Shown here: piece after piece, positions 340-31,748 of the stretch
Numbering within the stretch: position 1 is the first letter of the stretch
Layout: every line of letters begins with the position of its first letter
Virus record (IMG/VR): IMGVR_UViG_3300032167_000022
Source of the DNA: a virus
Length of the DNA: 32,771 nt
Reading direction: 5' to 3' (one strand)
The notes under the pieces: generated by a model
Told to the model about the DNA's origin: nothing
What the model saw: only the letters and a program-made list of their open reading frames with translations
Databases searched by the model: none
Made by a program: the position numbers and the translations under genes

Positions 340-368
340 ATTATACCACACTTTTGCGTATTTGTCAA
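340..368 (-). promoter_or_regulatory. early promoter P1: TTGACA, 17-nt spacer, TGgTATAAT (extended -10) on the minus strand
   Basis: tgtcaa at 363-368 and attata at 340-345 on the plus strand give TTGACA and TATAAT in reverse complement. The spacer is exactly 17 nt with TGg before the -10. There is an AT-rich UP-like region upstream. Confidence 0.7.
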
Positions 369-400
369 TACCTTTTTGAAAATTTATTTATGAATTTTTT

Positions 401-434
401 GTTAAGAAAAAAAGCTGTTTATAAAACAGCTTTT
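401..434 (-). terminator. rho-independent terminator (possibly bidirectional) for gene 631..419
   Basis: Stem aagctgtt/aacagctt with a 5-nt loop, followed by TTTTTTTCTT on the minus strand. The stop codon of the gene lies inside the hairpin. Confidence 0.55.
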
Positions 435-631
435 AATCTATAACAACAAATTCCATCTTCATTTTTTCTTTCAACTGCGTTATGCTTTTCCAAATGCCAC
501 AGGAAATCATTAACAATACCAACATCACTAAAGAATGTTGTACATCTTGCGATAAGATACATTTTTGACTTCCATTCATAAGACAATTCTTCTGCTACCT
601 TTGCCATAATTTCACTCATGCGATTTTCCAT
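419..631 (-). CDS. early hypothetical protein (70 aa), stop TAA
   Basis: ORF behind P2 with RBS agaaagaggtaaacaaaATG. Confidence 0.55.
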   Translation of the reverse strand: MENRMSEIMAKVAEELSYEWKSKMYLIARCTTFFSDVGIVNDFLWHLEKHNAVERKNEDGICCYRLKAVL

Positions 632-689
632 TTTGTTTACCTCTTTCTACCGTTCTTTTGGGCTTCCGGTTTTCCTCTTGTCTATATAT

Positions 690-718
690 ATTATACCATA
701 CTTTTACGCATTTGTCAA
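690..718 (-). promoter_or_regulatory. early promoter P2 (TTGACA-17-TGgTATAAT)
   Basis: tgtcaa at 713-718, attata at 690-695, spacer 17 nt. It is near-identical to P1. Confidence 0.7.
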
Positions 719-735
719 TAGGTTTTTGAAAATTT

Positions 736-775
736 CTTAAAAAAATTTTGAGAGGGTTTTCGGGAACCCTCTCGC
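736..775 (-). terminator. hairpin gagagggtt-ttcggg-aaccctctc downstream of gene 1102..785
   Basis: 9-bp stem with a 6-nt loop. The minus-strand tail is AAAATTTTTTT. The stem is related to the hairpin at 47-68. Confidence 0.4.
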
Positions 776-784
776 TTTAATTAA

Positions 785-1102
785 CTAAAATGTTGCTTCG
801 TTCTGTAAAATGTGCCTGCGCTTTTGTATATTCTTTTTGATTACGTTTGATAACCATTGCGGCGTATTGTTGTAAGTCACATAATTAGCCTGCTTATATT
901 CTGCTATGTACATTGTGATTATCATGCCTTCTTCGTCCTTGACTATCAGAACGCCTGTGTCTGTCAAGCAAGATACTGTCGGTGTGGTGGATGAATGGCG
1001 TTTAAATACGATGTTGCCATATCCAATAGTAGTGGCGATGTAAGCCACGCGGTCAAGGCGGTCTGCGCGCAGATGGTGGGAGATGTTTACTCTTTCAGTC
1101 AT
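785..1102 (-). CDS. early hypothetical protein (105 aa); the stop codon is TAG
   Basis: The ORF track extends to 1180, but its first 26 residues are translated promoter/UTR (CGIIYTE is tgtggtataatatatacag). The real start is the ATG at 1102, preceded by aaagaggtaaataaaATG. The stop at 785-787 is TAG, followed by ttaattaa. Confidence 0.55.
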   Translation of the reverse strand: MTERVNISHHLRADRLDRVAYIATTIGYGNIVFKRHSSTTPTVSCLTDTGVLIVKDEEGMIITMYIAEYKQANYVTYNNTPQWLSNVIKKNIQKRRHILQNEATF

Positions 1103-1151
1103 TTTATTTACCTCTTTCTTTTGGAAGGTGTGTTGTTTTCTTTCTGTATAT

Positions 1152-1180
1152 ATTATACCACATTTTTGTGTATTTGTCAA
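1152..1180 (-). promoter_or_regulatory. early promoter P3 (TTGACA-17-TGgTATAAT)
   Basis: tgtcaa at 1175-1180, attata at 1152-1157, spacer 17 nt. Confidence 0.7.
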
Positions 1181-1204
1181 TAGTTTTTTGAAAATTTATT
1201 TATG

Positions 1205-1244
1205 AACTTTTTGTAAACAAAAGGTACTGCTTTTCAGCAGTACC
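1205..1244 (-). terminator. rho-independent terminator for gene 1491..1234
   Basis: Stem ggtactgc/gcagtacc, then TTTTGTTTAC on the minus strand. The TGA stop of the gene sits in the loop. Confidence 0.6.
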
Positions 1245-1491
1245 CGCGTCTCATGATTTTCCTTTTTTCTGTTCCGATTATGCGGCAAGCTAACCGCACT
1301 GCGTGCCTGCGCTGGATTCTGATGCTTGCGCTTACCTCTTTGTCGTGCATCCAGTTGTCAAGGGCATCGCGCAATTCCATACGCTTATCTACCAATCTTC
1401 CCCAAATTTCATCATATCTTTCGTCGTAGGGGATGCGGTCAAGCGCATTGTTAATAAGGGTGATTCGGGTGATAGTGTTGATGATTTTCAT
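1234..1491 (-). CDS. early hypothetical protein (85 aa), stop TGA
   Basis: The real start is the ATG at 1491 (cat at 1489-1491 on the plus strand) after the conserved UTR with GAGG RBS. The upstream part of the track ORF is translated promoter. Confidence 0.55.
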   Translation of the reverse strand: MKIINTITRITLINNALDRIPYDERYDEIWGRLVDKRMELRDALDNWMHDKEVSASIRIQRRHAVRLACRIIGTEKRKIMRRGYC

Positions 1492-1551
1492 TGTTTTATC
1501 TCTCTTTCTTTTGGAGGGTGGCTCATTGACTCTCTCCCTCTCTCTGTATAT

Positions 1552-1580
1552 ATTATACCACATTTTAATAGATTTGTCAA
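1552..1580 (-). promoter_or_regulatory. early promoter P4 (TTGACA-17-TGgTATAAT)
   Basis: tgtcaa at 1575-1580, attata at 1552-1557, spacer 17 nt. Confidence 0.7.
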
Positions 1581-1671
1581 GGGGTTTTTTAAACTTTTTT
1601 CAAGAAATTTTCTTGGGGAAAAGCACCTGCGCATTTGGGAGTTTACTAACCCTTTCCCCCTTGACATATAT

Positions 1672-1700
1672 ATTATACCATACTTTGATTGAAAAGTCAA
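1672..1700 (-). promoter_or_regulatory. early promoter P5 (TTGACT-17-TGgTATAAT), in tandem about 120 bp upstream of P4 with no gene between
   Basis: agtcaa at 1695-1700, attata at 1672-1677, spacer 17 nt. Only about 80 nt of non-coding sequence separate it from P4. Confidence 0.6.
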
Positions 1701-1882
1701 TAGGTTTTTGAAAATTTATTTGTAAACAAAATATGAACTAATTTCGGGATACTGCTACCGAACAAATGTTTGTGCCTTACTTTAACAATTTATCACTTTA
1801 CCATACTAAAGCGCGAATTCGGGCCCCCACTACACCTGTCGTATGGAACGGATTGTTAAAACTTTAACAAGCGCATCCAGTA

Positions 1883-1913
1883 GACAAAAGAAAGATGGAG
1901 ATTACTCTCCATC
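1883..1913 (-). terminator. rho-independent terminator for gene 2060..1902
   Basis: Stem gatggaga/tctccatc with a 4-nt loop, followed by TTTCTTTTGTC on the minus strand. The TAA stop is in the loop. Confidence 0.6.
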
Positions 1914-2060
1914 TGTCAGATTCATTGCTATTACGAACATGTTCCAGTCTGCGTGCTGTGGTTCGCTCGTGTTGTTGTCTGCGATAATGTCAAGGTAGCT
2001 TACACCTGCCCAAATAGCAAGGGCGATTAAAATGGCGTTGATGGCTTTAAGAATTTTCAT
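1902..2060 (-). CDS. early small membrane/secreted peptide (52 aa: MKILKAINAILIALAIWAGVSYL...)
   Basis: ATG at 2060 after the conserved UTR. It has a hydrophobic N-terminal segment. The upstream part of the track ORF is translated promoter. Confidence 0.5.
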   Translation of the reverse strand: MKILKAINAILIALAIWAGVSYLDIIADNNTSEPQHADWNMFVIAMNLTDGE

Positions 2061-2118
2061 TGTCTTTGTATCCTTTCTTTGAGAGGGTTTGTTTTTTCTT
2101 TTCCCTTTCTCTATATAT

Positions 2119-2147
2119 ATTATATCATATTTTAATAGATTTGTCAA
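2119..2147 (-). promoter_or_regulatory. early promoter P6 (TTGACA-17-TGaTATAAT)
   Basis: tgtcaa at 2142-2147, attata at 2119-2124 with tca after it, spacer 17 nt. Confidence 0.7.
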
Positions 2148-2204
2148 TAGTTTTTCTTCAATTTAATTGTAAACGATTTATTAACATCGTTAAAACTTTA
2201 ACAA

Positions 2205-2245
2205 GCGCAGGCATTAGATAAGCAAGCATTTGTGATGCTTGCTTA
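2205..2245 (-). terminator. long imperfect hairpin (about 14 bp) downstream of gene 2473..2252
   Basis: tagataagcaagcat-ttgtg-atgcttgcttaatcta. There is no clear T tract on the minus strand. Confidence 0.35.
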
Positions 2246-2251
2246 ATCTAT

Positions 2252-2473
2252 TCACGCGAGACAAGCGTACAGAGTGAACTTCCTTTCTTCTACTTTGATG
2301 ATGCCTTCATCAGCCATCTCGCGCAGTACGTCAATCACGCGCAGACCATCGCCATTATAGCCCTTGATACCTGCTCTTGCCATAATGGTGTAGTAGGGAA
2401 GCCATTCAGCCATTACCGCATTTCTATTCTGAATCTTGTTTCTAATGTTCATCTTGCTTACGTTGATACCCAT
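2252..2473 (-). CDS. early hypothetical protein (73 aa), stop TGA
   Basis: ATG at 2473 (cat at 2471-2473) preceded by aagaaagaggtaacacaaATG. Confidence 0.55.
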   Translation of the reverse strand: MGINVSKMNIRNKIQNRNAVMAEWLPYYTIMARAGIKGYNGDGLRVIDVLREMADEGIIKVEERKFTLYACLA

Positions 2474-2546
2474 TTGTGTTACCTCTTTCTTTTGGTTGTT
2501 TTTGTTTTGTGCGCTCTCTGTCGCGCTCTTGTTTCTTTCTGTATAT

Positions 2547-2575
2547 ATTATACCACATTTTTGTGCATTTGTCAA
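2547..2575 (-). promoter_or_regulatory. early promoter P7 (TTGACA-17-TGgTATAAT)
   Basis: tgtcaa at 2570-2575, attata at 2547-2552, spacer 17 nt. Confidence 0.7.
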
Positions 2576-2660
2576 TAGGTTTTCGCAATATTTTTTTATT
2601 AACTTTTTATGAACATCGTTAAAACTTTAACAAACTCATACCACTGGACTACCAACAGCA

Positions 2661-2695
2661 GACAAAGAAAAGATGTGAGGTTTTACCCTCACATC
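2661..2695 (-). terminator. rho-independent terminator for gene 2859..2689
   Basis: Stem gatgtgagg/cctcacatc with a 6-nt loop, followed by TTTTCTTTGTC on the minus strand. The TGA stop is inside the hairpin. Confidence 0.6.
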
Positions 2696-2859
2696 CATCC
2701 AAGCTCTGCGCTTACTTCATTGAACTGCTCTTCATTGACATCGTACTCTACGTACTTTCTGCCATTCTCTTCGTAGAAGAAGAAGTTGCGCATCTCTACT
2801 CTGCCGCTTTCATAAATTTCATTAAACCACGCTTCACTCGTTGCTACTGTAATCATCAT
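2689..2859 (-). CDS. early hypothetical protein (56 aa, MMITVATSEAWFNEIYESGRVEMRNFFFYEENGRKYVEYDVNEEQFNEVSAELGWM)
   Basis: ATG ATG at 2859-2854 after the conserved UTR. The track ORF start at 2937 is translated promoter. Confidence 0.5.
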   Translation of the reverse strand: MMITVATSEAWFNEIYESGRVEMRNFFFYEENGRKYVEYDVNEEQFNEVSAELGWM

Positions 2860-2919
2860 TTTTTTAATCTCTCTTTCTGCCTTTCTTTTGGGCTTCAGGC
2901 TTTCCTCTGTTCTGTATAT

Positions 2920-2948
2920 ATTATACCACACTTTCATGGATTTGTCAA
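2920..2948 (-). promoter_or_regulatory. early promoter P8 (TTGACA-17-TGgTATAAT)
   Basis: tgtcaa at 2943-2948, attata at 2920-2925, spacer 17 nt. Confidence 0.7.
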
Positions 2949-4404: not shown

Positions 4405-4797
4405 TTAAAGCTCCCACACGAATGTACCATCCTTTAATTTATAAACATTAGCATGTAAGTTAATAGCTTCTCCACCTTCAAAATCATATTCTTTTAAATT
4501 CTTTTCTTCCAAAACTTCTTTTAATACTAAACTATCTTTTGGTAAACATAATGTAACTCCAATAACATTATGGTCATCATACATAGAAGTATCAACTATA
4601 TTATATTGCGCTTTTTCATTAATAACATTTACTGAAGTTACTAAAGTAACATCATTATATTCTTCAACAATTAATTTTTTCATTCTATCTCTTAATGAGC
4701 GTGAGCTATCTTTTCTTTCAATAACAGCAATAATAATTGTTACAATTATCATACCCGCAGTTACAATTCCCAATAATAATAAAGCATCTAAAAACAT
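4405..4797 (-). CDS. early membrane-anchored protein (130 aa; N-terminal TM helix LLLLGIVTAGMIIVTIIIAVI)
   Basis: ORF with RBS ttgaggtgcgcaaATG behind P9. Stop is TAA. Confidence 0.55.
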   Translation of the reverse strand: MFLDALLLLGIVTAGMIIVTIIIAVIERKDSSRSLRDRMKKLIVEEYNDVTLVTSVNVINEKAQYNIVDTSMYDDHNVIGVTLCLPKDSLVLKEVLEEKNLKEYDFEGGEAINLHANVYKLKDGTFVWEL

Positions 4798-4831: not shown

Positions 4832-4860
4832 ATTATATAAAAAATTTTTAAAAAAGTCAA
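4832..4860 (-). promoter_or_regulatory. early promoter P9 (TTGACT-17-TATAAT) for the 4797-to-3648 operon
   Basis: agtcaa at 4855-4860, attata at 4832-4837, spacer 17 nt. Confidence 0.6.
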
Positions 4861-4878
4861 TAAATGCCTTAATGAAAT

Positions 4879-4907
4879 TTGACAAAAGAAAAATTTTATG
4901 GTACAAT
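4879..4907 (+). promoter_or_regulatory. plus-strand promoter (TTGACA-17-TGgTACAAT), divergent from P9 and heading the structural/packaging module
   Basis: TTGACA at 4879-4884, TACAAT at 4902-4907 preceded by tgg, spacer 17 nt. GGAGG and an ATG lie 29 nt downstream. Confidence 0.6.
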
Positions 4908-4935: not shown

Positions 4936-5994
4936 ATGGTTAAATTAGATTATTCTTTACAAACTCCAGAAGAAAGAGTTAAATTAGTAGAATAGATTTT
5001 AGCCGAGGACCCAAACCCCAGTGAAAAATATTCAGAAGTATTGGCTGACTATTTAATTCTTTGTATGGAGAAACAAGAAAGAAAAGAAAAGAAAATTCTT
5101 ACTGAAAACCGAATGGCGACAGTAAATAAAAGAGAAACTTCTTATGAAGGTCTTGTTTCCCAATTAGAAAATGGCGAAGATGGTATATATAATTTAATGT
5201 CAGATAATAAATAGTAGATTTTTCAACCAAAAGTAACAATAACAAAAAAAGATTTAGAAGAGATTCCTGATTTGCGCCAATTGCGCGACGCCATAGAAAT
5301 CTGGGAGGCAAAACTAAAAACCGCCGAAGGAAAAGATGCTTTTACTATTAAAAAAGCTTTAATTGAATTGCGGAAAGACCAATATATTATTAAAAATGCG
5401 TTCAGATGCCCTGTTGAATTAAATAAGATTACTCGCTCAAAATCTTATATTAAATTAGATGATACAACTTGCGAATTTGATGATGATGGATATCCTATTC
5501 CTTCTGGAATTTCATTAATGAATCCTGAAGTTGTTTCAGCAATTTTATGTAATTATTCAAAATTAAAGCAAGATAGTTGGGATTATTTTGAAGGAGATAC
5601 TTGGTATCTTATGAATGATTTTGACCATTTGAGTAATGTGGCTTTAAAAGAATATCCATTATATGAACGATTAGTTGATTTAAAAATTGATGGACTTTAG
5701 AATGCGGATATCCAAATAAAATTAGAAGAAGAATTTGGAATTAAACATAGTCTAGAATATATATCTAGTTTATGGCGTAATAAAATTCCTAAATTAATTG
5801 CGTCAACTGCGGAAGATGAATTTTTAGATTGGTATTATTTAGAAGTTGAAAAAGGAAAATATAAAAAATGTAGTAGATGCGGACAGATTAAATTAGCTCA
5901 TAATAAATATTTTAGCAAGAATAAAACAAGCCGAGATGGCTTTTACAGTATTTGTAAATGCTGCCGGAATGCTAAAACAAAGAAAGGAGAATAA
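4936..5994 (+). CDS. first gene of the plus-strand module, about 352 aa, 4 in-frame TAG; C-terminal zinc-binding motif CSRCGQIKLAHNKYFSKNKTSRDGFYSICKCC (zinc ribbon or HNH-like?)
   Basis: RBS GGAGG, ATG at 4936. Frame 1 is continuous to the TAA at 5992-5994 if TAG is read as sense; it includes a TAG TAG doublet. The ORF track fragment 5272..5700 is in the same frame. Confidence 0.5.
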
Positions 5995-5997
5995 TTT

Positions 5998-7191
5998 ATG
6001 CCTGACCATTATTATTGTGAAAAATGTAATAGAACATTAGCAGCTGAAGAATTTTATACTTCAAATAATTTAGAAAAATATCCTAATGATGGTAAGTTAA
6101 ATCAATGTAAAAAATGTATTACAATGCATGTAGATAATTGGAATCCAGACACTTATCTATGGATTTTACAAGAAGTTGATGTCCCATATGTTCCAGAAGA
6201 ATGGGATAAACTTATGACATCATATATTAAAGACAATAAAAAAATTACAGGTATGACTATTTTAGGTAGATATCTATCTAAAATGAAATTAAAACAATTT
6301 AGAGAATATCGTTGGAAAGACAACGAATTTATACAAAATTTAAAAAATAAAAAAATTGAAGAAACAATGAAACGTTAGGGATATAGTGCGGTTGAAATAG
6401 CAGAAGCTATTAATAAATCAACCTTTACTATGCCTGTGGAAGAATTGCGCGAACCAGAACCTAAAGCAATTGGCTCTCAAGTGGAAGAAGAACCTGAAGA
6501 TTATTTTGCTAAATAGTCTGGTGCTGATGACTCTTTCTTTGATGATGATTTAACAGAAGAAGATAGAACATATTTAAGATTAAAATGGGGAAAAGCATAT
6601 AAACCAGAAGAATGGATTAAACTAGAACAACTTTATAATGAAATGATGGAATCTTATGATATCCAAACCGCAGGTCATATTGATACTTTAAAATTAATTT
6701 GTAAAACCTCATTAAAAGCAAATCAATTAATTGATATTGGTGATGTAGAAGGATTCCAAAAAATGAGTAAAGTTTATGATAACTTAATGAAGAGTGGTAG
6801 ATTTACTGCGGCCTAGAATAAAGCAGAATCTGGTGAGTTTGTTGACTCTATTGCTGAACTAGTTGAAATATGTGAAAAAGAAGGTTTTATTCCTAGATTT
6901 TATACAGATACACCAATGGATAAAGTTGATGAAACTTTAGCTGATTTAAAAGGATATACACGCACATTAGTCACTGAAGAAATGAATTTAGGTAATTTAA
7001 TTGAAAGTGCTGTTAAAGAAATGGCTAAGCAAGAAGCAAAAGAAGAAGATGAAGATGTTGAAGATGAACTTGATTTAGATGAAATTGAATAGTTAAAAGA
7101 TGAAGATTTTGAAGATTATAATCAATTTTTAGATGAAGATATAGAAGCTGACGCGGATTTCTTAAAGCAATTAACTAATGAGGGTAATTAA
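5998..7191 (+). CDS. about 397-aa protein with an N-terminal Cys4 zinc ribbon (CEKC...CKKC) and an acidic C-terminus, immediately upstream of terminase; candidate small terminase subunit or DNA-binding protein
   Basis: RBS aaaggagaataatttATG. Frame 1 is continuous through 4 TAG to the TAA at 7189-7191. The assignment rests on position and the zinc ribbon only. Confidence 0.45.
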
Positions 7192-7193: not shown

Positions 7194-8936
7194 ATGGCTT
7201 TATAGGATTTATTAAATTTATCTGAACAAAGAAAAAAAATTGGTTTATCTGAAGAAAGAGTAAATGCTATTATTCCAATAGTGCGTCAATACATTGCCTT
7301 TTGGAGAGAATATCCTGATATGTTTGTGGATTTTCTAGTTAGAGGTAATAGAACTGAAATAAAAGATGGCGAATTTAAATTTTATTTTTATTAGCGAGTA
7401 TTTTTGCGTGCGGCAATGCGACATCAGTATCTGTACGCAGTATTTCCTCGCGCCTATTCAAAATCATTCTTATCAGTAATGGTGTTAATGTGTAAATGTA
7501 TTTTGTATCCTCGTTGCAAATTGTTTGTTACTTCTGGAGGTAAGGAACAAGCTGCTGGTATCATTAAAGAAAAAGTTCAAGAAATTTGTACTCTTATTCC
7601 TGCGTTTAAAAATGAAATAGACTGGACAAGAGGTAAAACTCTTGAAGGAAAAGATTATTGTAAATATGTTTTTACAAATGGTTCATATTTTGATAATATC
7701 GCAGCGAGAGAAAGCTCTCGTGGTAAACGTCGTCATGGTGGTTTAATTGAGGAATGTGTTGGTGTTGATGGTACTATTCTTTCTGAAGTAATTATTCCTA
7801 CAATGAACGTTTCTCGTATGTGTATGGATGGTTCAACGCATCCAGAAGAATAGTTAAATAAGTCATAGATTTATGTAACTACAGCTGGATGGAAAAATAC
7901 ATTCCCTTATGATAAGCTCATTCAATTACTAGTATGGCAAATTGTTAAACCAGAAAAATCTATGATACTTGGTGGTACATATCGTATTCCAGTATTAGTT
8001 AAATTACTTGATAAAAACTTTATCCGTGATTTAAAAATGGATGGTACATTTAATGAGATGTCTTTTGACCGTGAATATGAAAGTAAATGGTCTGGTTCGG
8101 TTGAAGATGCTTTCTTTAATTCAGAAGTTTTTGATAGAAATAGAATTTTAAAATAGCCTGAATATGAAGCATCAGGGCGCTCAAGCAAATCTAGTTTTTA
8201 TATATTATCTGCGGATGTTGGTCGTAAAGGTTGTGATACTGTAGTATGCGTATTTAAGGTAACACCATAGCCGCAAGGCTCTTCCATAAAAACTTTAGTA
8301 AATTTATTTACTTTATCAGATGCGCATTTTGAAGATTAGGCTATTAAATTAAAAAGATTATTTTATAAATTTAATGCTCGTAGATTAATAATTGATGCTA
8401 ATGGTATGGGTATTGGTTTATTAGATTATTTAGTAAAGCCTCAAATTGACCCAGATACTGGCGATACTTTCCCTGATTTTGGTGTTTATAATGATGAAGA
8501 AGGATATTATAAAAAATATAGAACAGTAAATTGCGAACAAGATGCTGTTTATCAAATAAAAGCAAATGCTCCTATAAATACTGAAGCTCATGCTAATGCG
8601 CGTTCTCAATTATCTTCTGGAAAAGTTAAAATGCTTATAGATGAACGTGTGGCAAAAGTTAAATTAATGGGAACAAAATTAGGTTAGAATATGAAGCCTG
8701 AAGAAAGGGCAGAATATTTAAAACCATTTACTTTAACTTCCATATTAAGAGAGGAATTAATGAACCTTCGTGAAGAAAATGAAGGTGTTAATATTATACT
8801 TAAATAGGTAAACCGAGGGGTTAGAAAAGATAAATTTTCTGCCTTTGAATATGGTCTATATTATATTAAACAAGAAGAAGATAATAAAAAGAAGAAAAAG
8901 AAATTTAATGCTAAAGAGTGGATGTTTTTAAGTTAA
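7194..8936 (+). CDS. terL: terminase large subunit (about 580 aa, 9 in-frame TAG)
   Basis: RBS gagggt. The translation gives FYFY*RVF aligned with the T4 gp17 Y-Q-R adenine-binding motif, a deviant Walker A (PRAYSKS), YVTTAGW (motif III), and nuclease-domain aspartates (ILSADVGRKG, LIIDANGMGIGL). It ends at a TAA. Confidence 0.8.
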
Positions 8937-9322: not shown

Positions 9323-10936
9323 TTGGATAATAAAGAATTAACGCGAAATGAACAAATTCATGCTAAAGGTTTTAACATTGATGGCGGATATAGAGATTAT
9401 GCTTGTATAGATAGTGAGACTGACTTTAAACGTATAAAAGTTGGAGTTAAGCAATTAGATGACGCAGTTTTAAATTTAGGTTCATTAAAATCTTGTTTGC
9501 CACCAAACCATAAATTCGCAGATAAAAAATATATCTTTAAAATGATTATGGATAGAAATATAGAAGAATTGAGAAATATATCTAATTTCTATTATAATAT
9601 GAATGGTATATATGAAAGAGTTTGTAATTATTTCGCTTAGTTATATAGATATGACTGGTATGTTGTTCCAGAAGTAATTGATGATAGTATTAAAGAAGAT
9701 AAAATATTGAAAGATTTTTCTAAAGTGCTGAATTATTTAGATAATTCATATGTTAGAAAAATTTGTCAAGATATTGCTTTAGAGATTATGAAAAATGGAT
9801 GTTATTATGGATATCTTGTTCCAAGTTCAGATAGCATTATTCTACAACAATTGCCGATTGAATATTGCCGCTCTCGCTATAGCGTCGCAGGAATGCCAGC
9901 CATTGAATTTAATATGAAATTTTTTGATACGTTTAGAGATATGAATTATCGTTTAAAAGTATTAAATTTATTTCCCGATGAATTCAAAAAAGGTTATTTA
10001 CTTTATAAGCAAGGAAAATTACCCGCTGAAGTGTAGGGAGATAGTAGTGGTGGATGGTATTTATTAGATACAGATAGTGCTGTTAAATTTAATTTTAATG
10101 GTAGTGATATTCCTCCATTTGTAAATGCTATTGGGGCTTTATTGGATTTAGATGCTGCTTAGGATTTAGACCGTCGTAAGTAGATGTAGAAATTGTTAAA
10201 AATTATTGTTCAAAAACTTCCATTAGATAAAAATGGTGATTTAATTTTTGATGTAGATGAAGCAAGAGATATTCACAATAATGGTGTATAGATGTTAAGA
10301 CGTGCTGTTGGTGTTGATGTTTTAACAACTTTTACTGATGTTGATTCAATTGATTTATCTGATAAAAATACATCTACAACAACCGATGATTTGGAAAAAG
10401 TAGAAAGAGCATTATTTAATGCTTTAGGTATTTCTTAGAATTTATTTAATACTGATGGAAATTTATCATTGGAAAAATCTATTTTAAATGATGAATCAGT
10501 AGTGAGAAATCTATTATGTTAGTTTAGTATTTTCTTTGACAAAGTTATTGATAAAAAATATTCAAATGGAAAAAAATATAAATTTAAATTTTATATGTTA
10601 GAAACCACTCAATATAATTATAAAGATTTAGCTAAATTATACAAAGAATAGACGCAAATTGGATATTCAAAAATGTTACCGCAAATAGCTTTAGGTCATT
10701 CTCAAAGCTTTATTTTAAATTCAGTACATTTTGAAAATGAAGTATTACATTTAAGTGAAATTATGATTCCTCCTCTAATGAGTTCAACTATGAGTAGTGA
10801 AGATGTTTTAGGTAATAAAAAATCTACAACTAGTTCCAATTCTAATTCTACTTCTGGAAATGCGGTTGGCCGACCGGAGAAAGCAGATTCAGAAAAAAGT
10901 GAAAAGACAATTCAAAATAAAGAGTCAATGAATTAA
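9323..10936 (+). CDS. portal protein (about 537 aa, about 12 in-frame TAG)
   Basis: TTG start after AAAGGAGGTGG. One frame is continuous, joining track ORFs 9323, 9707 and 10673. It lies downstream of terL and has a Ser/Thr-rich acidic C-terminus. I did not verify family membership. Confidence 0.5.
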
Positions 10937-13444: not shown

Positions 13445-14560
13445 ATGGCTTTAGATAGACAAAATTTAGTTGATTTGATGAAGCAGGTAGCAAAAGCTGA
13501 CCCTTCCGCTCCTACTGCTTATGCGTATGGTGATAAGACTCTTAGCTATGATGCTTTAAATGAAACTTTGCGTCAAGAATTAAATGAACTTGCTGGTTCA
13601 TATTCTGACTATCGTGAAAATAAAAATCTTATTTTCGCAGTAATTGAAGAAACTCTTGATGAAGTTCTTCCTAAGAAGGTTGAACAGAAATATGAGCAGT
13701 TTGCTGAAGTTAAGCAGTTTGCTCAAGGTGATAAGCCTGCGTTTCGCCGCAAGGTTGGTTCCAGCAAACGTGCTAAGCAGTTTATTACTCGTGTTGGTTT
13801 AAATGGTATTTATGAAGTATTTAAGCTTGCTCCTAATACCGATGAAGTAATTGAAGTTCGTACTTCTGCTGTCGGTGGAGCTGCTCAAATCGGATTTGAG
13901 GAGTTCCTTGATGGTCGTGTAGACTTCGCAGAAGTTACTCGCATCGTTATGGAGGGTATTGATGAACTTATTTATAAGGAAATCGCGCATGCTCTTAAAG
14001 CTTCTGTAAATCAGTTACCACCAGCAAATAGAGTTGCTGCTCCTGGCTTTGATGAGGCTGCTTTTGACAAACTTCTTACTATTGCTAATGCTTATGGTAC
14101 ACCTACTATTTATTGTACTTATGAATTTGCTGTTCAGATGATTCCATAGGAAGCTTGGAGATATACTGAGGCAATGAAGACTGAGCTTTGGAATACTGGT
14201 CGTCTCGCTTCTTATAAGGGACATAAGGTAGTTATTCTTGAGCAAGGCTTTGAGGATGAAACTAATAGTCGCAAAGTTATTGACCCAGGTTATGTATGGA
14301 TTATTCCTGCTGGCGCTGATAGCAAGCCTGTAAAGGTTGCTTTTGAAGGTCAGACTCTTGTTGATGAATAGGTTAATAAGGACCGTTCTCGTGAAATTCA
14401 GGTTTATAAGAAGGTTGGCGTTGTTGCTATGTTGGCAAATAACATTTGCTGCTATGTTGATACTGCTCTTCTTGGTGACCTTGATACTTGGCATCTTGAT
14501 GGTGTAACCGGTAAGGTTGCTACTTATGATGGCCGTCTTGATGGTTCTTTAAAGGCGTAA
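13445..14560 (+). CDS. major capsid protein candidate (371 aa, only 2 TAG)
   Basis: RBS aaggagtgaagaataATG. It joins track ORFs 13445 and 14174 through TAG. A strong terminator follows it, as is typical for a major capsid gene. The residue pattern is reminiscent of HK97-fold capsid proteins, but this is not verified. Confidence 0.5.
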
Positions 14561-14596: not shown

Positions 14597-14640
14597 GGGG
14601 GAGAATGGGGATGTTCCCCTTCTCCCTTATATTTATTAAT
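14597..14640 (+). terminator. rho-independent terminator after the capsid gene
   Basis: GC hairpin ggggagaatgggga-tgt-tccccttctccc followed by ttatatttatt. Confidence 0.6.
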
Positions 14641-19681: not shown

Positions 19682-19891
19682 ATGATTATCCATTCTAGTA
19701 GAGCTACCAAGCTTGCGCCAGTGGCTTCTCCCAAGCAGCCTGAGGCTCAGCCTAAAGTGGAGAAAAAGCCTGAACGCAGACGTAAAGAAAAACAAAATCA
19801 TATTGAAGTAGCTGAACAGTTACCAGTAGCTGAAAAGGCGAAGAAGATTTTGGAAGAAATAGAAGAAGAAGTTAAAAGTGAAAATGAATAA
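19682..19891 (+). CDS. small charged protein (69 aa) 5 nt after the tail-tube stop; alternatively a frameshift extension of the tail tube protein
   Basis: ORF in the -1 frame relative to the tube gene. There is no clear RBS. Confidence 0.3.
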   Translation: MIIHSSRATKLAPVASPKQPEAQPKVEKKPERRRKEKQNHIEVAEQLPVAEKAKKILEEIEEEVKSENE

Positions 19892-19894
19892 AAT

Positions 19895-19935
19895 AAGGGA
19901 AGAGATAGAAATATCTCTTCCCTTATTTTTATTTA
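19895..19935 (+). terminator. strong rho-independent terminator after the major tail gene
   Basis: 13-bp stem aagggaagagata/tatctcttccctt followed by atttttattt. Confidence 0.7.
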
Positions 19936-19951: not shown

Positions 19952-21061
19952 ATGAAATTCAATTCATCAGATAATTTATTAAACAAATTAAAGGAAACTA
20001 GTGAAGGAGCAAAACTTGCTAACACCGTTGATGAAATACATAAGTTATTATCTCATATAGGTAATAAAGGGGATGAGACTATAGCTTAGAGGGCTTCTGA
20101 TTTTTTAACTTGGCTTTTATTTAATAAATCTATGAAGAATAAACTTTATCTTAGTGATGCAGTAAGAAATCAGTTATTAGAAAATCCTATAATTTTAGAT
20201 GTAGTTAATTTTTTTAAGCAAAGCTCTTCAACAAGTCAAAATATTCAACAAAATCTTGCAAATTATAATGAAACCTTTTTGGGTGATTTCTACAATCAAA
20301 GAGGTATTACAACTGAACAAATGTTTGTAAAACTTATAAATAATTTTATTGTAAATGGTGAAAAAATTCAACATAGTGGAAATGATTAGGCTACTGTTTG
20401 GTTATCTTCATTAGCAAAATATCTTGTTCAAGAGGGTGCTAATGAATTAGATAACTCATTCAAAAATTTGGTTAATGAATCAAATTTAATTAAAGAAAAT
20501 AGAAAATTACGTTTTGCTTATAGAGATGTAAAAATAGATACAAGGTCTAACAATCCAAATGCAACAATTTAGTTTGGAGTTGAAGATGAAAAATTATAGG
20601 GTGATTTACAAGCTGTATATTCAGTATTTTCTAGTGCAACAATTAAATCCAAAAATGATTTAAAAAATATTGATTTAGAGGAAGTAAATATTTTAAAAGC
20701 ATATTCAGCTTTTATCAATTATGCTCGTGGTAAAATTCCGCAATCAGAAATTAAAAATTTATTTGTTAGATATTATAAAGATAATAATGATGATTTTGTA
20801 CATAATCCATATATAACTTTACATATTAATCATATTATTTCAGTATATGCATTAACTGGTATGGGAACCACATTACAATCAGATTTAAATAGTATGCTTA
20901 AAGGTGCTCGCTATATAGTTGTTGTTGATAATATAAAATAGAAAGTAATTATTCATTCTACTCATGAAATCATTAATAAGATTTTATTAACAAAAAAATA
21001 TAGCAAAAATATAGTGACAAATATTCAATTGAATTTAACAAGCAAAAGCTTGACAAAATAA
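19952..21061 (+). CDS. unknown protein (330-369 aa, 4-5 TAG) inserted between the tail-tube terminator and the chaperone promoter; moron-like cassette
   Basis: RBS aaaggaggtttaaggaATG. Frame 2 is continuous. The last in-frame TAG is at 20939, and the TAA at 21059 lies inside the downstream promoter, so the true C-terminus is ambiguous. Codon usage is AT-richer than in neighbouring genes. Confidence 0.45.
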
Positions 21062-21078
21062 AAAATTTTTGGTATAAT
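21050..21078 (+). promoter_or_regulatory. plus-strand promoter (TTGACA-17-TGgTATAAT) before the chaperone and tape measure genes
   Basis: TTGACA at 21050-21055, TATAAT at 21073-21078 with tgg before it, spacer 17 nt. Confidence 0.65.
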
Positions 21079-21667: not shown

Positions 21668-21710
21668 AATCGGATGTGAGAGATTGTTCTCACATCCGAT
21701 TTTTTATTTT
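21668..21710 (+). terminator. strong hairpin with a T tract between the chaperone and tape measure genes (attenuator?)
   Basis: 14-bp stem aatcggatgtgaga/tctcacatccgatt followed by tttttatttt. Confidence 0.6.
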
Positions 21711-21743: not shown

Positions 21744-24700
21744 ATGGCTCAATAGAGATTTGATTTTACATTAGGTATAAAAGCTGATACAAGTCAAGCC
21801 GAATAGAAAATGAATGAGTTGGCTAATTCTTTGAAAAAAATTGCGTCAAATCCTCCATCTTTATTAGATGATTAGGATTTAAAAGATGCTACGAAATCAG
21901 CGCAAGAATTAGAAAAACATTTGTCTAAAGCTGTAAATGTAAATACTGGTAAATTAGATTTATCAAAATTTTCAAAAAGTTTATCCTCTGCTGGATAGGA
22001 TTTAACATATTTTTAGAAAAATTTATCTAAACTTGGCGTAGAAGGTGAGTAGGCATTTTTAAAACTTGCTGAAAATATTGCTATGGCTGAAGTGCCAACA
22101 GTGCGTTTAAATAATCATTTAAAGAATTTTTTAGATGAATTAATTAAAGTCGGACGTTGGCAATTGAGTTCTAATATTATGCACGGACTGTAGGGAGCCA
22201 TTTAGACTGCTTATGGTTATGCGCAAGATTTAAATGAATCATTAACAAACATTAGAATTGTTACTGGTTAGACTACAGATGAAATGGCTAAATTTGCGTT
22301 AAGAGCAAATGATGCGGCAAAAGCTTTAAGTACAACTACTACTAACTATACAGATGCGGCATTAATCTTCTATCAGCAAGGTCTTGCGGAAGATTAGGTT
22401 GAAGAGCGCACAAACACAACAATTAAAATGGCTAATGCTACTGGTGAAAATGTTACAAAGATATCTGACCAATTAACTGCGGTTTGGAATAACTTTGATA
22501 ATGGTACCAAGCCATTGGAATATTATGCTGATGTTATGACTGCGTTAGGTGCGGCAACTGCTTCTAGTACTGATGAAATCGCTGAAGGTATTGAAAAGTT
22601 TGCTTCAATTTCTGAAATGATTGGTTTAAGTTATGAGTATGCGGCTTCCGCGCTTACGACCGTAACAGATGTCACTCGTCAAAGTGCCGATGTAGTAGGT
22701 ACTGCATTTAAAACGATTTTCGCACGTATTTAGGGTTTAAAACTTGGTGATACATTAGAAGATGGTACATCTTTAAATAAATACTCATAGGCTCTTGCTT
22801 CTGTTGGTATTTCTATTTTTGATTAGAATCAACAATTAAAAGATATGGATGATATCCTTGATGAGATGGGCGCTAAATGGTCATTACTTAGTAGAGACTA
22901 GCAAGCTGCGCTCGCGCAAACTGTTGCTGGCGTAAGACAGTACAATCAGCTTGTATCTCTTATGAATAACTGGGATTTCTTTAAATAGAATGTAAATGTA
23001 GCAAAAGGTTCTGAAGGAACTTTAACTGAACAATCAGCTATTTATGAAGAAAGCTGGGAAGCATCTTTAAAGAGAGTTAGAGCTTCTGCTGAAGGTATTT
23101 ATGATAGTTTAATTGATGAAGAATTTTTTATTAAGATTAATGATATTTTTGCTAAATTATTAGAAGGAATTAATGGAGCAATAGATGGTATTGGCGGATT
23201 TGAAGGAATTTTAAAAACTTTAGGTAGTGTATTTATGTCTTATTTTGCTTCTAAAATGCCGAAAGCATTATCAGGCATAAGCAATACTTTTAGTATTATT
23301 ACTGGAAAAGCTTTAAGAGATACTTAGAAAATACAATAGGAAAGTATTAATAGTTTATCTAAAATGCGTCCTGATGCTACTAATGCTGAAAAAATTTAGC
23401 AAGAAGGATTGAAAAAAGTTGCTATTTTAAAGCGTGAATTAACTAATATTTCTAATAAATTAACTGAAGAAGAAAAAGAAGAAAATTAGAATAGAATATA
23501 GCAAACCGCAGATATTTATGCTAATGCTGCTGCCATTGAAAAAGAAGCGGCAGAATTAAGAAAACTTAATGAAGAAAAAATTAAAAGTTCTTCTAATCAA
23601 ATTACAAACGAAGCTTTCGGATTTAGAGAAACTATTGCTGAAGATCAAAATCAAATAAATACATTAAGTTAGATATAGAATAGAACAAAATTAGATGATT
23701 CAAGATTAGATAAAGCTACTTCACGAGTTAATGAATTAACTGAGCAATTTTTTAAATTAAAAGATGCTATGGATGAAGTTATAGAATCTAAACAAATAGC
23801 TTTTGATAAAAAAGATTGGGAAGAATTTTCTAATATGGGAGAATTATTAGATTTTGATAGTAGAGAATCTAAAGAGTATTTCCAATATGTTGGAGAAGGA
23901 ATTGATTAGTTAAAAGCAAAATATATTGATTTTAGAAAACAAGAGTAGTAGTATGAATATTTAAAAAATAAAATAGATATTAATAAAGCAGCTTGGACTG
24001 CTCCTGATTTTAATTTATCTTTGGATGAAGCAAAAAATTCTATTTCACAATATTTAAGACAAATAGATGAATTAAAAAAATAGGGATTTGTTTAGTTAGA
24101 TATAGATACAACAGAGTTGTAGTCAAAATTGAAATCAACTGATGTAACTGTTGAGGATTTACAAAAATCATTTATTTCTTTTTTAAATAATTTATCAAAT
24201 AAAGCTTCAAAAACTTCTACAAGTTTTTCAAAAGATGGCGATAAGATTCATAGTGCATTATTAAAAATTTTAACTCCTTTAATGGGTGATAAAAGTCAAG
24301 CTGAAAAAGCAATTGAAGGTCTGCGCACAAAATTAGCAGAATTAACAGAAGAAGAAATGGATTCTGTTTTACGCACAACTGGAATGTTATCGGAAAGAGT
24401 AGATGAACTTCCAAAACATGCTTATAAAGCCTCAGAAGCTATAATGGAACTTGGAAGTGCTTTAATGTCTTTAAATTCTTTTATGAATTCTGTTAGTAGT
24501 ACTACTCAAATACTTGAAGATAATACTGCTTCTATGGCTGATAAAATAGGAGCTGTTGTTGGAGCAGCTTCTACTGGAATTTTTACTTTTAATTAGACTA
24601 AATAGGCAATGATTGCTGTTGTTGGAGCTGTAAGTAAATTTGCGGGAGCGGCAACTACAGCCGCCAAAAGTGGAGCTGCTTTATCGGGAATTTTAAGTAA

Positions 24701-30700: not shown

Positions 30701-31664
30701 AAAAGCTCTTGGAGATGAATTATAGAAAGTTAGAGAGTTAATTACAGAATATGCTTTACAAAGTAATGGATTAGATATTTTAGCTGAAAAATATGAATCT
30801 TTAAGAGGTCAAATTGATAGTTTAATTTCATCAATTAATAGTATTCCTGATTGCGCTGAATGGTGTGTAAAAACATATGGAGATGGCGGAATGGGAGGAG
30901 GAGATACTGGAGGTAATTTCCCAGTTGATCCTGACCCAGTTTTTTCATCTGATGATGATGATAGTAAATTTGGTTGTGGTGCTCATACTGCTACAACAGC
31001 AGATGATATTAAAGATACATCAATAACATCAAATACTAATAAAAATTATGCTGTAGAATCTGCTAAATATTGGAAAGGTCAACAAAGTATTGGAGAAGCT
31101 GCTGCTAATTTAGGAATTTCTGTTAGTGAAATGAATAAAATAAATATGGCTTTAGCGGGTTAGACTGAAAATTGGAATGGTACTAAAATTTTCACTGAAG
31201 AATTTGCTGATTAGAATTTATCTGATGATTATGAAAGAACTCAAAAAAGTGGATTTGATGAAATTATTAATAATCAACAATCTGCTGCTAATGTAAATAA
31301 ATGGCTTATAGATGAAGGTATAGCAACTGGTGCCACAGGCATGTATACTGGGGCTTGGGGTCCAGAAGGTAGATTAGCGTTATTGCATGAAAAAGAATTA
31401 GTATTAAATAAAGAAGATACTAAAAATTTCTTACATGCAACCGATATTTTAAGAAGTATATCTGATGTAATAGATTTACAAGCTATGTCAAATCAATTTA
31501 ATACTTTATCTGCTAGTATCTATTCTGGTTCTTCTGGAATATTAGAACAATCAGTTCATATAGAAGCTAATTTCCCGAATGTATCTGATAGGAATGAAAT
31601 TGAAGAAGCGTTTAATAATCTTATTAATACAGCTTCTCAATATGCGAATCGTAAAACTATATAA
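21744..31664 (+). CDS. tail tape measure protein, about 3306 aa, with on the order of 100 in-frame TAG and no in-frame TAA or TGA in the parts I translated
   Basis: RBS aaaggagtaattatatattATG. Frame 0 links nine track ORF fragments (22428, 24129, 24609, 26376, 27021, 29547, 30891, 31341). It carries the TP901-type tape measure core motif (GISIFD*NQQLKDMDDILDEMGAKWSLLSRD*QAALAQTVAGVRQYNQLVSLMNNW), a Gly/Ala-rich membrane segment (MIAVVGAVSKFAGAATTAAKSGAALSGILSKGLAAIGGPTTLIIAGITAAIMGLVGFLG), and long coiled-coil stretches. It ends at a TAA followed by a terminator. Confidence 0.85.
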
Positions 31665-31719: not shown

Positions 31720-31748
31720 TTGACTTTAGCAAAAAATTAAGTTATAAT
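31720..31748 (+). promoter_or_regulatory. plus-strand promoter (TTGACT-17-TATAAT) for the distal tail genes
   Basis: TTGACT at 31720-31725, TATAAT at 31743-31748, spacer 17 nt. An RBS gaaaggaga and an ATG follow at 31776. Confidence 0.6.

What the first reader, a model, noticed from the sequence alone, without database searches (positions are those of the whole stretch)
4832..4907. A divergent promoter pair drives the early and structural modules with the same host-type consensus, so late-gene timing may be enforced after transcription
The minus-strand early promoter P9 and the plus-strand structural-module promoter at 4879-4907 lie back to back. They share the same consensus: TTGACA or TTGACT, a 17-nt spacer, then TATAAT or TGgTACAAT. 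Two more plus-strand promoters of this type occur at 21050 and 31720. I see no distinct late-promoter motif. If the structural operon is transcribed by the host holoenzyme from the start of infection, the recoded TAG codons are the obvious barrier to premature translation.
Basis: inference. Interest (0 to 1): 0.7.

Follow-up and report, generated by a model that had tools for sequence, protein, structure and literature searches.

The report
Conserved divergent host-type phage promoters
Two back-to-back host-type promoters mark the conserved point where an amber-recoded gut phage's leftward and rightward gene blocks diverge. They are real, but they do not show that stop-codon recoding sets late-gene timing.

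Summary
At 4832-4860 (-) and 4879-4907 (+) there are two sigma-A/sigma-70-type promoters, their -35 boxes 18 bp apart. Each is correctly placed before a Shine-Dalgarno site and an ATG. Sites of this quality are about 13-fold over chance in the window. The pair recurs in most of 59 distinct related phage junctions.

1. The first gene behind the rightward promoter is not structural. It is g1, a conserved helical, zinc-ribbon protein that PHROGs labels 'sigma factor'; I could not verify that label. The packaging and head genes follow it without gaps.
2. Standard-code and TGA-recoded relatives, including a cultured Enterococcus phage, have the same architecture. It therefore predates TAG recoding.
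3. Four abundant-protein genes in the module contain no TAG.
4. The promoters are not all alike. The eight early cassettes form one class. The junction pair and the internal structural-module promoter share an A-tract/T-tract spacer that is almost absent from early promoters.

Host RNA polymerase probably does transcribe the module. Recoding is at most an added lock, as Borges et al. already proposed. This is an ordinary kind of element with a useful comparative twist.

The parts
4832..4860 (-). Leftward junction promoter ('P9'): TTGACT, spacer TTTTTAAAAATTTTTTA, TATAAT. It has no TG extension. Its spacer is the A5T6 type.
   Evidence: Homologous divergent promoters score at least 11/12 in 45 of 59 related junctions.
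4861..4878 (.). The 18-bp segment between the two -35 boxes. In relatives this spacing ranges from overlapping boxes to more than 50 nt, so the geometry is not conserved.
4879..4907 (+). Rightward junction promoter: TTGACA, spacer AAAGAAAAATTTTATGG, TACAAT. It is TG-extended and has an A5T4 spacer.
   Evidence: It scores at least 11/12 in 48 of 59 related junctions, and the -10 box lies 19-40 nt from the ATG in 53 of 57.
4405..4797 (-). First gene of the leftward operon: 130 aa with an N-terminal hydrophobic helix and no PHROG match. Small ORFs follow it down to about 3373.
4936..5994 (+). g1: 352 aa with 4 in-frame TAG codons. A conserved two-domain helical protein with a C-terminal four-cysteine zinc ribbon. 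It matches PHROG 5767, labelled 'sigma factor', but the label is unverified.
5998..7191 (+). g2: 397 aa with 4 TAG codons. A homologue of SPbeta YonG, the gene that sits directly upstream of the large terminase in this phage supergroup. Its ATG lies 3 nt after the g1 stop codon.
7194..8936 (+). Large terminase subunit (YonF-like), with 9 TAG codons.
9323..10936 (+). Portal protein, with 9 TAG codons.
13445..14560 (+). g8, probably the major head protein (a weak YonB match, E 0.001 against a 22-protein set). It has 2 TAG codons and 40% GC.
14597..14630 (+). Strong intrinsic terminator (-23.6 kcal/mol) ending the unit g1-g8. No promoter lies between it and g9.
19890..19929 (+). Strong intrinsic terminator (-23.0 kcal/mol) after g15-g16; g15 is labelled 'virion structural protein' in PHROGs and is probably the tail tube (inferred from position). 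No promoter lies between it and g17.
21050..21078 (+). Internal promoter: TTGACA, spacer AAATAAAAAATTTTTGG, TATAAT (12/12, TG-extended, A6T5 spacer). It lies upstream of g18.
   Evidence: A homologous promoter sits about 600-750 nt (up to about 1.3 kb) before the tape-measure gene in most of 61 distinct relatives.
21668..21701 (+). Strong intrinsic terminator (-22.2 kcal/mol) between g18 and the tape-measure gene. Only 42 nt separate it from the tape-measure ATG, and that stretch holds the Shine-Dalgarno site.
21744..31664 (+). Tape-measure protein, 3306 aa with 78 TAG codons.
   Evidence: Tape-measure proteins of similar length occur in the related phage group (PMC10607447).
31670..31693 (+). 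Intrinsic terminator (-18.8 kcal/mol) after the tape-measure gene.
31720..31748 (+). Internal promoter: TTGACT, spacer TTAGCAAAAAATTAAGT, TATAAT (11/12). It lies upstream of g20.
340..2948 (-). Array of eight near-identical early promoter cassettes, with -35 starts at 368, 718, 1180, 1580, 1700, 2147, 2575 and 2948. Most drive one small gene that matches no known family and ends in a terminator.

Best explanation
The 76-bp segment is the conserved bidirectional promoter junction of a large TAG-recoded siphovirus of a Gram-positive gut bacterium. The phage belongs to the Enterococcus EF1/VRE9 branch of the SPbeta supergroup and is probably the 'Agate' clade of Borges et al.

Shown:
- Both promoters have the core elements of the host housekeeping sigma factor, and each sits in front of a ribosome-binding site and an ATG.
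- The leftward promoter starts a small multi-gene operon.
- The rightward promoter is followed without any gap by g1, the YonG-like gene, the large terminase, a homing endonuclease, the portal, and the head genes. A strong terminator follows g8, about 9.7 kb downstream.
- The genes after that terminator have no promoter of their own until 21050. The tape-measure gene has none either, so both depend on terminator read-through.

Inferred:
- Host RNA polymerase transcribes the module.
- The terminators sit after the genes for the most abundant proteins and probably set stoichiometry.
- The junction pair and the 21050 promoter form a second promoter class: sigma-A hexamers plus an A-tract/T-tract spacer. 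This class is distinct from the eight early cassettes, which have a perfect core, a TG extension, a shared upstream A/T block and a shared ATATACAGA start region.
- The early array captures polymerase first. The second class is probably regulated or weighted separately.
- TAG recoding adds a translational lock on most, but not all, module genes, including g1. It is neither the ancestral nor the only timing device.
For: - Core elements and placement.
- Enrichment over chance, 13 sites against 0.97 expected.
- Conservation in 59 distinct related junctions.
- Conservation of the internal promoter before the tape-measure gene.
- Gene map and TAG content.
- Terminators.
- Strong GGAGG ribosome-binding sites.
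- Supergroup membership: TerL resembles SPbeta YonF (24% identity, E 2e-46) and g2 resembles YonG.
- Early-array asymmetry in relatives: 5.7 strong minus-strand promoters per 5.9 kb upstream, against 0.4 plus-strand per 7 kb downstream.
- Two promoter classes. The pattern of at least four A followed by at least three T occurs in 2-3% of 238 early-array spacers. It occurs in 64-66% of g1-type and 41-49% of g18-type spacers; the null is 1-2%. Spacer A+T is 0.54 in the early array against 0.78-0.84. In the window the pattern occurs only at 4860(-), 4879(+) and 21050(+), plus one site without a -35 box.
- The same architecture in standard-code and TGA-type relatives and in the cultured standard-code Enterococcus phage VRE9_3.
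- TAG-free genes g7, g9, g15 and g16.
Against: - No transcript data exist, so promoter use, strength and timing are all inferred from sequence.
- The A/T-tract spacer could simply be a strong-promoter design in A+T-rich DNA with no regulatory meaning. It is absent from the VRE9_3 homologue and weaker in the few standard-code relatives.
- The promoter sets from relatives are not phylogenetically independent, although clustering by flanking sequence did not change the fractions.
- In TAG-recoded relatives the g1 promoter is closer to consensus (11-12/12) than in most standard-code ones (10/12).
- The function of g1 is unknown.
Confidence: 0.55

Rival explanations
1. All host-type promoters fire from the start of infection, so the structural operon is transcribed early. 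In-frame TAG codons stop its translation until the phage suppressor tRNA has accumulated. Timing is post-transcriptional.
For: - Conserved host-type promoters lie in front of and inside the module.
- No non-sigma-A motif was found.
- 16 of 20 module genes carry TAG, 155 codons in all.
- g1 homologues in recoded relatives carry 1-7 TAG codons.
- Recoded relatives have near-consensus g1 promoters, whereas most standard-code ones score 10/12.
- The hypothesis is published for this kind of phage.
Against: - Relatives without TAG recoding have the same architecture, including a cultured phage with a 12/12 promoter.
- Four TAG-free genes for abundant proteins sit in the module.
- The early and module promoters differ in class.
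- No suppressor tRNA lies in the window or in 60 related loci, so its own timing is unknown.
Confidence: 0.22
2. g1 is a divergent sigma-like factor or late activator. The host polymerase makes its mRNA from the 4879 promoter, and the g1 protein then switches transcription to the late programme. Because g1 itself contains TAG codons, the code switch would trigger the transcriptional switch.
For: - PHROG 5767 carries the label 'sigma factor', E 9e-49.
- The g1 homologue has its own near-perfect host promoter even in VRE9_3, where it is not at the junction.
- In Enterocloster phage PMBT24 the same position, first gene of the rightward module behind a 12/12 host promoter, is held by a YonO-type RNA polymerase gene.
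- YonO transcribes the SPbeta late genes (PMC5467207).
- Among cultured phages the g1 family and YonO do not co-occur at tblastn sensitivity.
Against: - None of 50 diverse family members hits any sigma-70 or HTH model in Pfam at E<=1.
- NCBIfam and PDB profile searches are empty.
- There is no intergenic space or conserved embedded element between g1 and the packaging genes.
- No non-sigma-A motif was found.
Confidence: 0.15
3. The late switch is processive antitermination, as with lambda Q. Polymerase starting at the host-type promoters stops at the strong terminators after g8, g16 and g18 until a phage factor, possibly g1, makes it terminator-resistant.
For: - Four strong plus-strand terminators (-19 to -24 kcal/mol) are present, and three have no promoter behind them.
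- The terminator before the tape-measure gene is conserved in relatives.
Against: - The terminators sit exactly after the genes for the most abundant proteins, which is what a stoichiometry-setting leaky terminator would do.
- The Q21 hit disappeared with the better model.
- No Q-binding or pause element was identified.
Confidence: 0.06
4. The matches are chance hits in A+T-rich DNA and are not functional promoters.
For: Matches of 9-10/12 are no more frequent than in shuffles: 102 against 95 expected, and 83 against 104.
Against: - Sites scoring at least 11/12 are about 13-fold enriched.
- They lie in intergenic gaps at the correct distance from ribosome-binding sites.
- They are conserved in position across dozens of relatives whose flanking sequence has diverged.
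Confidence: 0.02

Closest known systems
Stop-codon recoding as a regulator of late and lytic genes (Borges et al., bioRxiv 10.1101/2021.08.26.457843; 'Agate' clade)
   Same: Both concern large phages of Firmicutes (about 154 +/- 27 kb) with closely related standard-code, TAG and TGA members. Recoded codons are concentrated in structural genes. The published proposal is that late proteins cannot be made before the code switch. The window's family shows the same mix of codes.
   Different: That work contains no promoter analysis; the word 'promoter' does not occur in it. Here the promoter layout is mapped and turns out to be independent of the code used. Assignment of the window to 'Agate' rests on these shared properties and was not tested against Agate genomes.
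SPbeta late transcription by the single-subunit polymerase YonO (Forrest et al. 2017, PMC5467207)
   Same: Both share the gene order YonG, YonF (terminase), YonE (portal), with the MCP candidate (weak YonB match) further downstream. In both, a host-transcribed regulator gene sits upstream of the packaging genes at a point of divergent transcription.
   Different: No YonO homologue was found in the window, in the held loci, or in cultured phages that carry the g1 family. In SPbeta a separate late promoter lies upstream of yonK. Here nothing separates g1 from the packaging genes.
Strong early sigma-70 promoter arrays of lytic phages such as T7 A1-A3 and T5 P_N25 (from general knowledge)
   Same: Both have several near-consensus host promoters clustered in the early region, driving small host-takeover genes.
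   Different: Here each cassette is a near-identical unit of promoter, leader, small gene and terminator. The late module also carries host-type promoters.
Lambda P_R' with Q antitermination (from general knowledge)
   Same: Both have a host-type promoter at the head of a long late operon that contains intrinsic terminators.
   Different: No Q homologue, Q-binding element or promoter-proximal pause site was identified, and the fold hit to Q21 was not reproducible.
Late activators encoded directly upstream of terS in siphoviruses of Gram-positive bacteria (RinA, ArpU, LtrC; from general knowledge) and the sigma cascade of Bacillus phage SPO1 (gp28, gp33/34)
   Same: g1 occupies the corresponding position, immediately ahead of the packaging genes. 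It has a helical DNA-binding-like C-terminal domain.
   Different: No sequence match to any of these families was found in Pfam or NCBIfam. There is no intergenic promoter between g1 and the next gene.

Membership tests
Sigma-70/sigma-A-dependent promoter | A -35 hexamer close to TTGACA and a -10 hexamer close to TATAAT, separated by 17 +/- 1 nt | tested here: met
   11/12 on both strands with 17-nt spacers. Such sites are about 13-fold over shuffles.
Sigma-70/sigma-A-dependent promoter | Position in an intergenic gap at a workable distance upstream of a ribosome-binding site and start codon | tested here: met
   The -10 box ends 28 nt (plus) and 35 nt (minus) before the ATG, with GGAGG and GAGGTG between them. 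The distance is 19-40 nt in 53 of 57 relatives.
Sigma-70/sigma-A-dependent promoter | Evolutionary conservation of the hexamers relative to flanking non-coding DNA | tested here: met
   The hexamers are the best-conserved columns in the alignment of 60 junctions. The promoters score at least 11/12 in 48 (plus) and 45 (minus) of 59 junctions.
Sigma-70/sigma-A-dependent promoter | A transcript 5' end 6-8 nt downstream of the -10 box, dependent on host holoenzyme | not testable with these tools
   No transcript data are available for this phage or any relative.
Sigma-70 family protein (for g1) | Recognisable region 2 and region 4 at the sequence-profile level | tested here: not met
   No Pfam hit for g1. 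None of 50 diverse members hits a sigma-70 model at E<=1. NCBIfam and PDB profile searches are empty.
Sigma-70 family protein (for g1) | Sigma-2 and sigma-4 folds in a predicted structure | tested here: inconclusive
Sigma-70 family protein (for g1) | Binding to RNA polymerase core and promoter-specific initiation | not testable with these tools
   This requires biochemistry.
Code-15 (TAG to Gln) recoded phage | Long ORFs appear only when TAG is read through, and TAG aligns with Gln in standard-code homologues | tested here: met
   Length in ORFs of at least 100 aa rises from 18.8 kb to 38.0 kb when TAG is read through. TAG at g1 residue 255 aligns with an invariant Gln.
Code-15 (TAG to Gln) recoded phage | A phage-encoded amber suppressor tRNA | tested here: not met
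   No tRNA was found in the window or in 60 related loci. The rest of the genome is not available, so absence from the phage is not shown.
Code-15 (TAG to Gln) recoded phage | Early genes readable in the standard code | tested here: met
   The minus-strand ORFs are intact under code 11, and two of them end in TAG.
SPbeta-type late transcription (YonO) | A YonO-like two-barrel RNA polymerase gene | tested here: not met
   No YonO homologue was detected in the window: the only alignment is a chance-level 80-residue match in the tape-measure protein, E 0.021. There is no YonO hit in cultured phages carrying the g1 family. No contig is shared between 80 g1 loci and the 80 best of 193 YonO-like loci. 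The whole genome could not be checked.
SPbeta-type late transcription (YonO) | The packaging and head gene order YonG, YonF, YonE | tested here: met
   g2 matches YonG (E 3e-8) and g3 matches YonF (E 2e-46). Terminase relatives are listed.
Lambda-Q-type antitermination | A Q-family protein together with a Q-binding element and promoter-proximal pause | tested here: inconclusive
   Terminators are present. The Q21 fold hit appeared only with the low-confidence model and not with the better one. The DNA elements were not searched for.

The most novel reading that the evidence does not exclude
g1 is a highly diverged sigma-like or late-activator protein that acts on the A-tract/T-tract-spacer promoter class. 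Because its own mRNA carries TAG codons, the switch of genetic code would be the trigger of the late transcription programme. That would be a cascade in which translation gates transcription, within a phage supergroup that elsewhere solves the same problem with the YonO polymerase.
Probability: 0.12. Interest if true: 0.75.

Novelty: new member of a known kind. Interest (0 to 1): 0.4.

Why it matters
Large amber-recoded phages of gut Firmicutes are uncultured, and their gene-expression programme is unknown. This junction gives a concrete, conserved map of where host polymerase should start. It also gives testable predictions:
- There are two promoter classes that can be told apart by a simple spacer signature.
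- A conserved regulator-like gene sits at the head of the packaging module.
- Standard-code, TAG and TGA relatives share the same layout. They form a natural experiment that separates what recoding contributes from what the promoters contribute.

It does not overturn anything. The recoding-as-timer idea is already published, and the promoters are of the ordinary host type.

Tried and rejected

3. A hidden promoter inside g1 or g2. Third-codon-position conservation across 60 relatives shows no peak above 2 SD.

4. A non-sigma-A late motif. 8-mer enrichment in 494 intergenic segments returned only terminator stems and ribosome-binding sites.

5. A YonO-type polymerase. None was found in the window or in the held loci. 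The tape-measure protein is an ordinary tape measure with no polymerase domain.

6. The suppressor tRNA. None was found in the window or in 60 related loci.

7. Rfam at gathering threshold gave no match in the window.

8. A near-identical annotated genome. Megablast against 50,697 phage records found nothing.

9. Relatives of g18 and g20, sought in order to test the 31720 promoter. None were retrieved.

10. PHROG matches for ten minus-strand proteins. None were found.

Full report
CONTEXT

The window is part of a TAG-recoded phage.
- On the plus strand from about 4.9 kb onward, long ORFs appear only if TAG is read through. Length in ORFs of at least 100 aa rises from 18.8 to 38.0 kb, and one ORF of 3306 aa holds 78 TAG codons.
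- The small minus-strand genes at 75-4797 are intact in the standard code, and two of them stop at TAG.
- TAG at residue 255 of the first plus-strand protein aligns with an invariant glutamine.
- Nearly every gene has a GGAGG-type ribosome-binding site, which points to a Gram-positive host.
- The large terminase is 49-51% identical to those of Enterococcus phages VRE9/H1/EF1 and Geobacillus E3, and 42% to phage Phass-1. It is related to SPbeta YonF, at 24% identity and E 2e-46 in a direct BLASTP.
- Relatives are very numerous in metagenomes. 6689 proteins match g1 at E<1e-5, on contigs of 130-200 kb.
- These relatives include standard-code, TAG and TGA-type members. This matches the 'Agate' clade of Borges et al.. 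That assignment is an inference.

THE OBSERVATION

It is correct. The sequences are:
- Minus strand: TTGACT (4860-4855), 17 nt, TATAAT (4837-4832).
- Plus strand: TTGACA (4879-4884), 17 nt ending in TGG, TACAAT (4902-4907).
- The -35 boxes are 18 bp apart.
- The plus-strand sites at 21050 (12/12, TG-extended) and 31720 (11/12) also exist.

Weak matches of 9-10/12 are no more common than in shuffles. Sites scoring at least 11/12 with a 17-nt spacer number 13, against 0.97 +/- 0.92 expected.

The pair is conserved. In 59 distinct junctions from relatives whose g1 protein is 57-79% identical:
- The best plus-strand match is at least 11/12 in 48.
- The best divergent match is at least 11/12 in 45, and both are in 36.
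- None of 300 shuffles reached 11.
- The -10 box lies 19-40 nt from the ATG in 53 of 57.

In the alignment the hexamers are the most conserved columns. The distance between the two -35 boxes is not conserved; it runs from overlapping to more than 50 nt. The back-to-back geometry itself is therefore probably not functional.

WHAT THE PROMOTERS DRIVE

The leftward promoter precedes a 130-aa membrane-anchored protein and four further small ORFs, none with a known relative.

The rightward promoter precedes g1 (4936-5994, 352 aa, 4 TAG). Genes then follow with gaps of 2-29 nt (two pairs overlap) up to a strong terminator at 14597-14630 (-23.6 kcal/mol):
- g2, a YonG homologue
- the large terminase
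- an HNH endonuclease
- the portal
- g6 and g7
- g8, the probable major head protein

There is no promoter between that terminator and g9, none after the terminator at 19890-19929, and none after the one at 21668-21701, which sits 42 nt before the tape-measure ATG. Genes g9-g17 and the tape-measure gene therefore need read-through. The terminators stand right after the genes for the presumably most abundant proteins, so I read them as stoichiometry-setting attenuators. That reading is inferred.

The promoter homologous to 21050 is present about 600-750 nt (up to about 1.3 kb) before the tape-measure gene in most of 61 distinct relatives, in both TAG-recoded and standard-code members.

TWO PROMOTER CLASSES

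The eight minus-strand promoters at 368-2948 are near-copies of one cassette. They share:
- an upstream A/T block
- TTGACA followed by AAT
- a spacer ending in TG(T/A)TGG
- TATAAT followed by ATATACAGA

The junction pair and the 21050 promoter instead have spacers built from an A-tract followed by a T-tract:
- 4879(+): AAAGAAAAATTTTATGG
- 21050(+): AAATAAAAAATTTTTGG
- 4860(-): TTTTTAAAAATTTTTTA

Across relatives, the pattern of at least four A followed by at least three T behaves as follows:

| Promoter set | Spacers with the pattern | Spacer A+T |
|---|---|---|
| 238 early-array promoters | 2-3% | 0.54 |
| g1-type promoters | 64-66% | 0.78 |
| g18-type promoters | 41-49% | 0.84 |
| Leftward junction promoters | 36-43% | not computed |
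| Random A+T-rich 17-mers | 1-2% | n/a |

Clustering the promoters by flanking sequence did not change these figures. In the window the pattern combined with a good -10 box occurs only at those three promoters, plus one site that lacks a -35 box.

The 'early' P9 therefore groups with the structural-module promoters, not with the early cassettes. Whether the spacer is a regulatory target or just a design for strength cannot be told from sequence. It is absent from the homologous promoter of the cultured Enterococcus phage VRE9_3.

WHAT g1 IS

It matches PHROG 5767, labelled 'sigma factor' (E 9e-49). It is 40% identical to the proteins so annotated in Enterococcus phages.

I could not confirm the label:
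- There are no Pfam, NCBIfam or PDB sequence hits, even with 50 diverse members or a profile built from them.
- A confident model (pLDDT 86) shows two helical domains, a short beta hairpin and a four-cysteine zinc ribbon.
- Foldseek finds nothing.

Context nevertheless argues for a regulatory role:
- In VRE9_3 the homologue has its own 12/12 TG-extended host promoter 43 nt upstream, even though it is not at the junction there.
- In Enterocloster phage PMBT24 the equivalent position is held by a YonO-type RNA polymerase gene, also behind a 12/12 host promoter.
- YonO transcribes the SPbeta late genes (PMC5467207).
- Among cultured phages the two gene families do not co-occur at tblastn sensitivity.

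This evidence is circumstantial.

RECODING AND TIMING

- Most module genes carry TAG.
- g1 homologues in recoded relatives carry 1-7 TAG codons.
- I found no alternative promoter motif.
- Recoded relatives tend to have near-consensus g1 promoters, while most standard-code ones score 10/12. This rests on few, possibly related, lineages.

Against it as the main mechanism:
- Standard-code and TGA-type relatives, and the cultured VRE9_3, have the same layout.
- g7, g9, g15 and g16 have no TAG and g8 has two. These are also the genes with the highest G+C, which suggests TAG is avoided where translation must be efficient.
- The promoters fall into two classes.
- The suppressor tRNA is not in the window or in 60 related loci, so its own timing is unknown.

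COMPARISON AND VERDICT

The elements are ordinary host-type promoters at a conserved divergence point of a phage from a known clade. The proposed mechanism restates a published hypothesis, and that publication contains no promoter analysis.

What is new here:
- The layout is independent of the genetic code used.
- The junction and internal promoters carry a class-specific spacer.
- The first gene behind the rightward promoter is a conserved regulator-like protein that is itself recoded.

I rate the finding as a new member of a known kind, with moderate interest.

DEAD ENDS

- There is no near-identical annotated genome.
- There are no Rfam hits.
- No relatives were retrieved for g18 or g20.
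- The tape-measure protein has no polymerase domain.
- No papers with transcript data on recoded phages of Firmicutes were found.

Noticed in passing
window 3237-3411 (also 1211-1220 and 1720-1729): There is an array of about ten 11-bp-periodic repeats of TTGTTCAYAAT in a roughly 400-nt non-coding stretch between the leftward operon and the early cassettes. The motif TTGTTYAYAA occurs 8 times in the window against 1.3 expected, 7 of them in the early region. Two copies lie just upstream of early promoters. This could be an iteron-like origin or a binding array for a regulator of the early promoters.
   Followed up: partly
window 3033-3228: There are two about 45-bp direct repeats (3067-3118 and 3113-3162), flanked by a 23-nt inverted repeat (3038-3060 and 3206-3228, 91% complementary). 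They lie in the same non-coding stretch.
   Followed up: no
window 340-2948, minus strand: There are eight near-identical units of promoter, leader, small gene and terminator. The promoters are perfect TTGACA-17-TGnTATAAT with a shared ATATACAGA start region. Most encode one protein of 52-105 aa with no PHROG match. They look like duplicated early host-takeover cassettes.
   Followed up: partly
window 1590-1672, minus strand: The promoter at 1700 is followed by only about 90 nt before the next promoter at 1580. This stretch has no ORF but contains a GGGGAAAG...CTTTTCCCC hairpin. It may be a small RNA. Rfam has no match.
   Followed up: no
window 12609-13427, 13445-14560, 14663-15226, 18642-19891: g7, g9, g15 and g16 contain no TAG and g8 contains only two, although they use 4-15 ordinary Gln codons each. 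Four of these five have 40% G+C (g9 has 34%), against 25-31% for their neighbours. Genes expected to be most highly expressed seem to avoid the recoded codon.
   Followed up: partly
loci L002-L081 (relatives of g1): This one protein family (g1 57-79% identical) spans standard-code, TAG-recoded and TGA-type phages. Most standard-code members have weaker g1 promoters (10/12) than the TAG-recoded members (11-12/12). Too few independent lineages are available to test the trend.
   Followed up: partly
loci L086-L165, about 60-100 nt upstream of the tape-measure ATG: In many relatives the terminator before the tape-measure gene is followed by a conserved A/T palindrome, TTTTATTTTGCAAAATAAAA, and then by GGAGAGAAAGGAG. 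The window has only a degenerate version, TTTTATTTTGAACGAAAAG. Its function is unknown.
   Followed up: no
window 8949-9305 and 8988-9016: An HNH homing-endonuclease gene (g4, 2 TAG) is inserted between the terminase and portal genes. An 11/12 promoter-like site lies inside its first 70 nt. In Enterococcus relatives, homing endonucleases split the terminase gene itself.
   Followed up: no
window 5866-5994 and 5998-6130: The C-terminal zinc ribbon of g1 resembles the N-terminal zinc ribbon of YonG and g2: 41% identity over 34 residues to YonG (E 0.008 against a very small database). This hints at a shared module between the two adjacent genes.
   Followed up: no
cultured phage records: Among cultured phages with SPbeta-type terminases, the g1 family (Enterococcus, Mammaliicoccus, Brevibacillus and Geobacillus phages) and the YonO polymerase (SPbeta-like, Enterocloster, Thomasclavelia and Clostridium phages) do not co-occur at tblastn sensitivity. 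In PMBT24 the YonO gene occupies the position that g1 holds here.
   Followed up: partly
window about 10-40: A homopolymer run of about 35 T on the plus strand (A on the minus strand) lies just beyond the last early cassette terminator.
   Followed up: no
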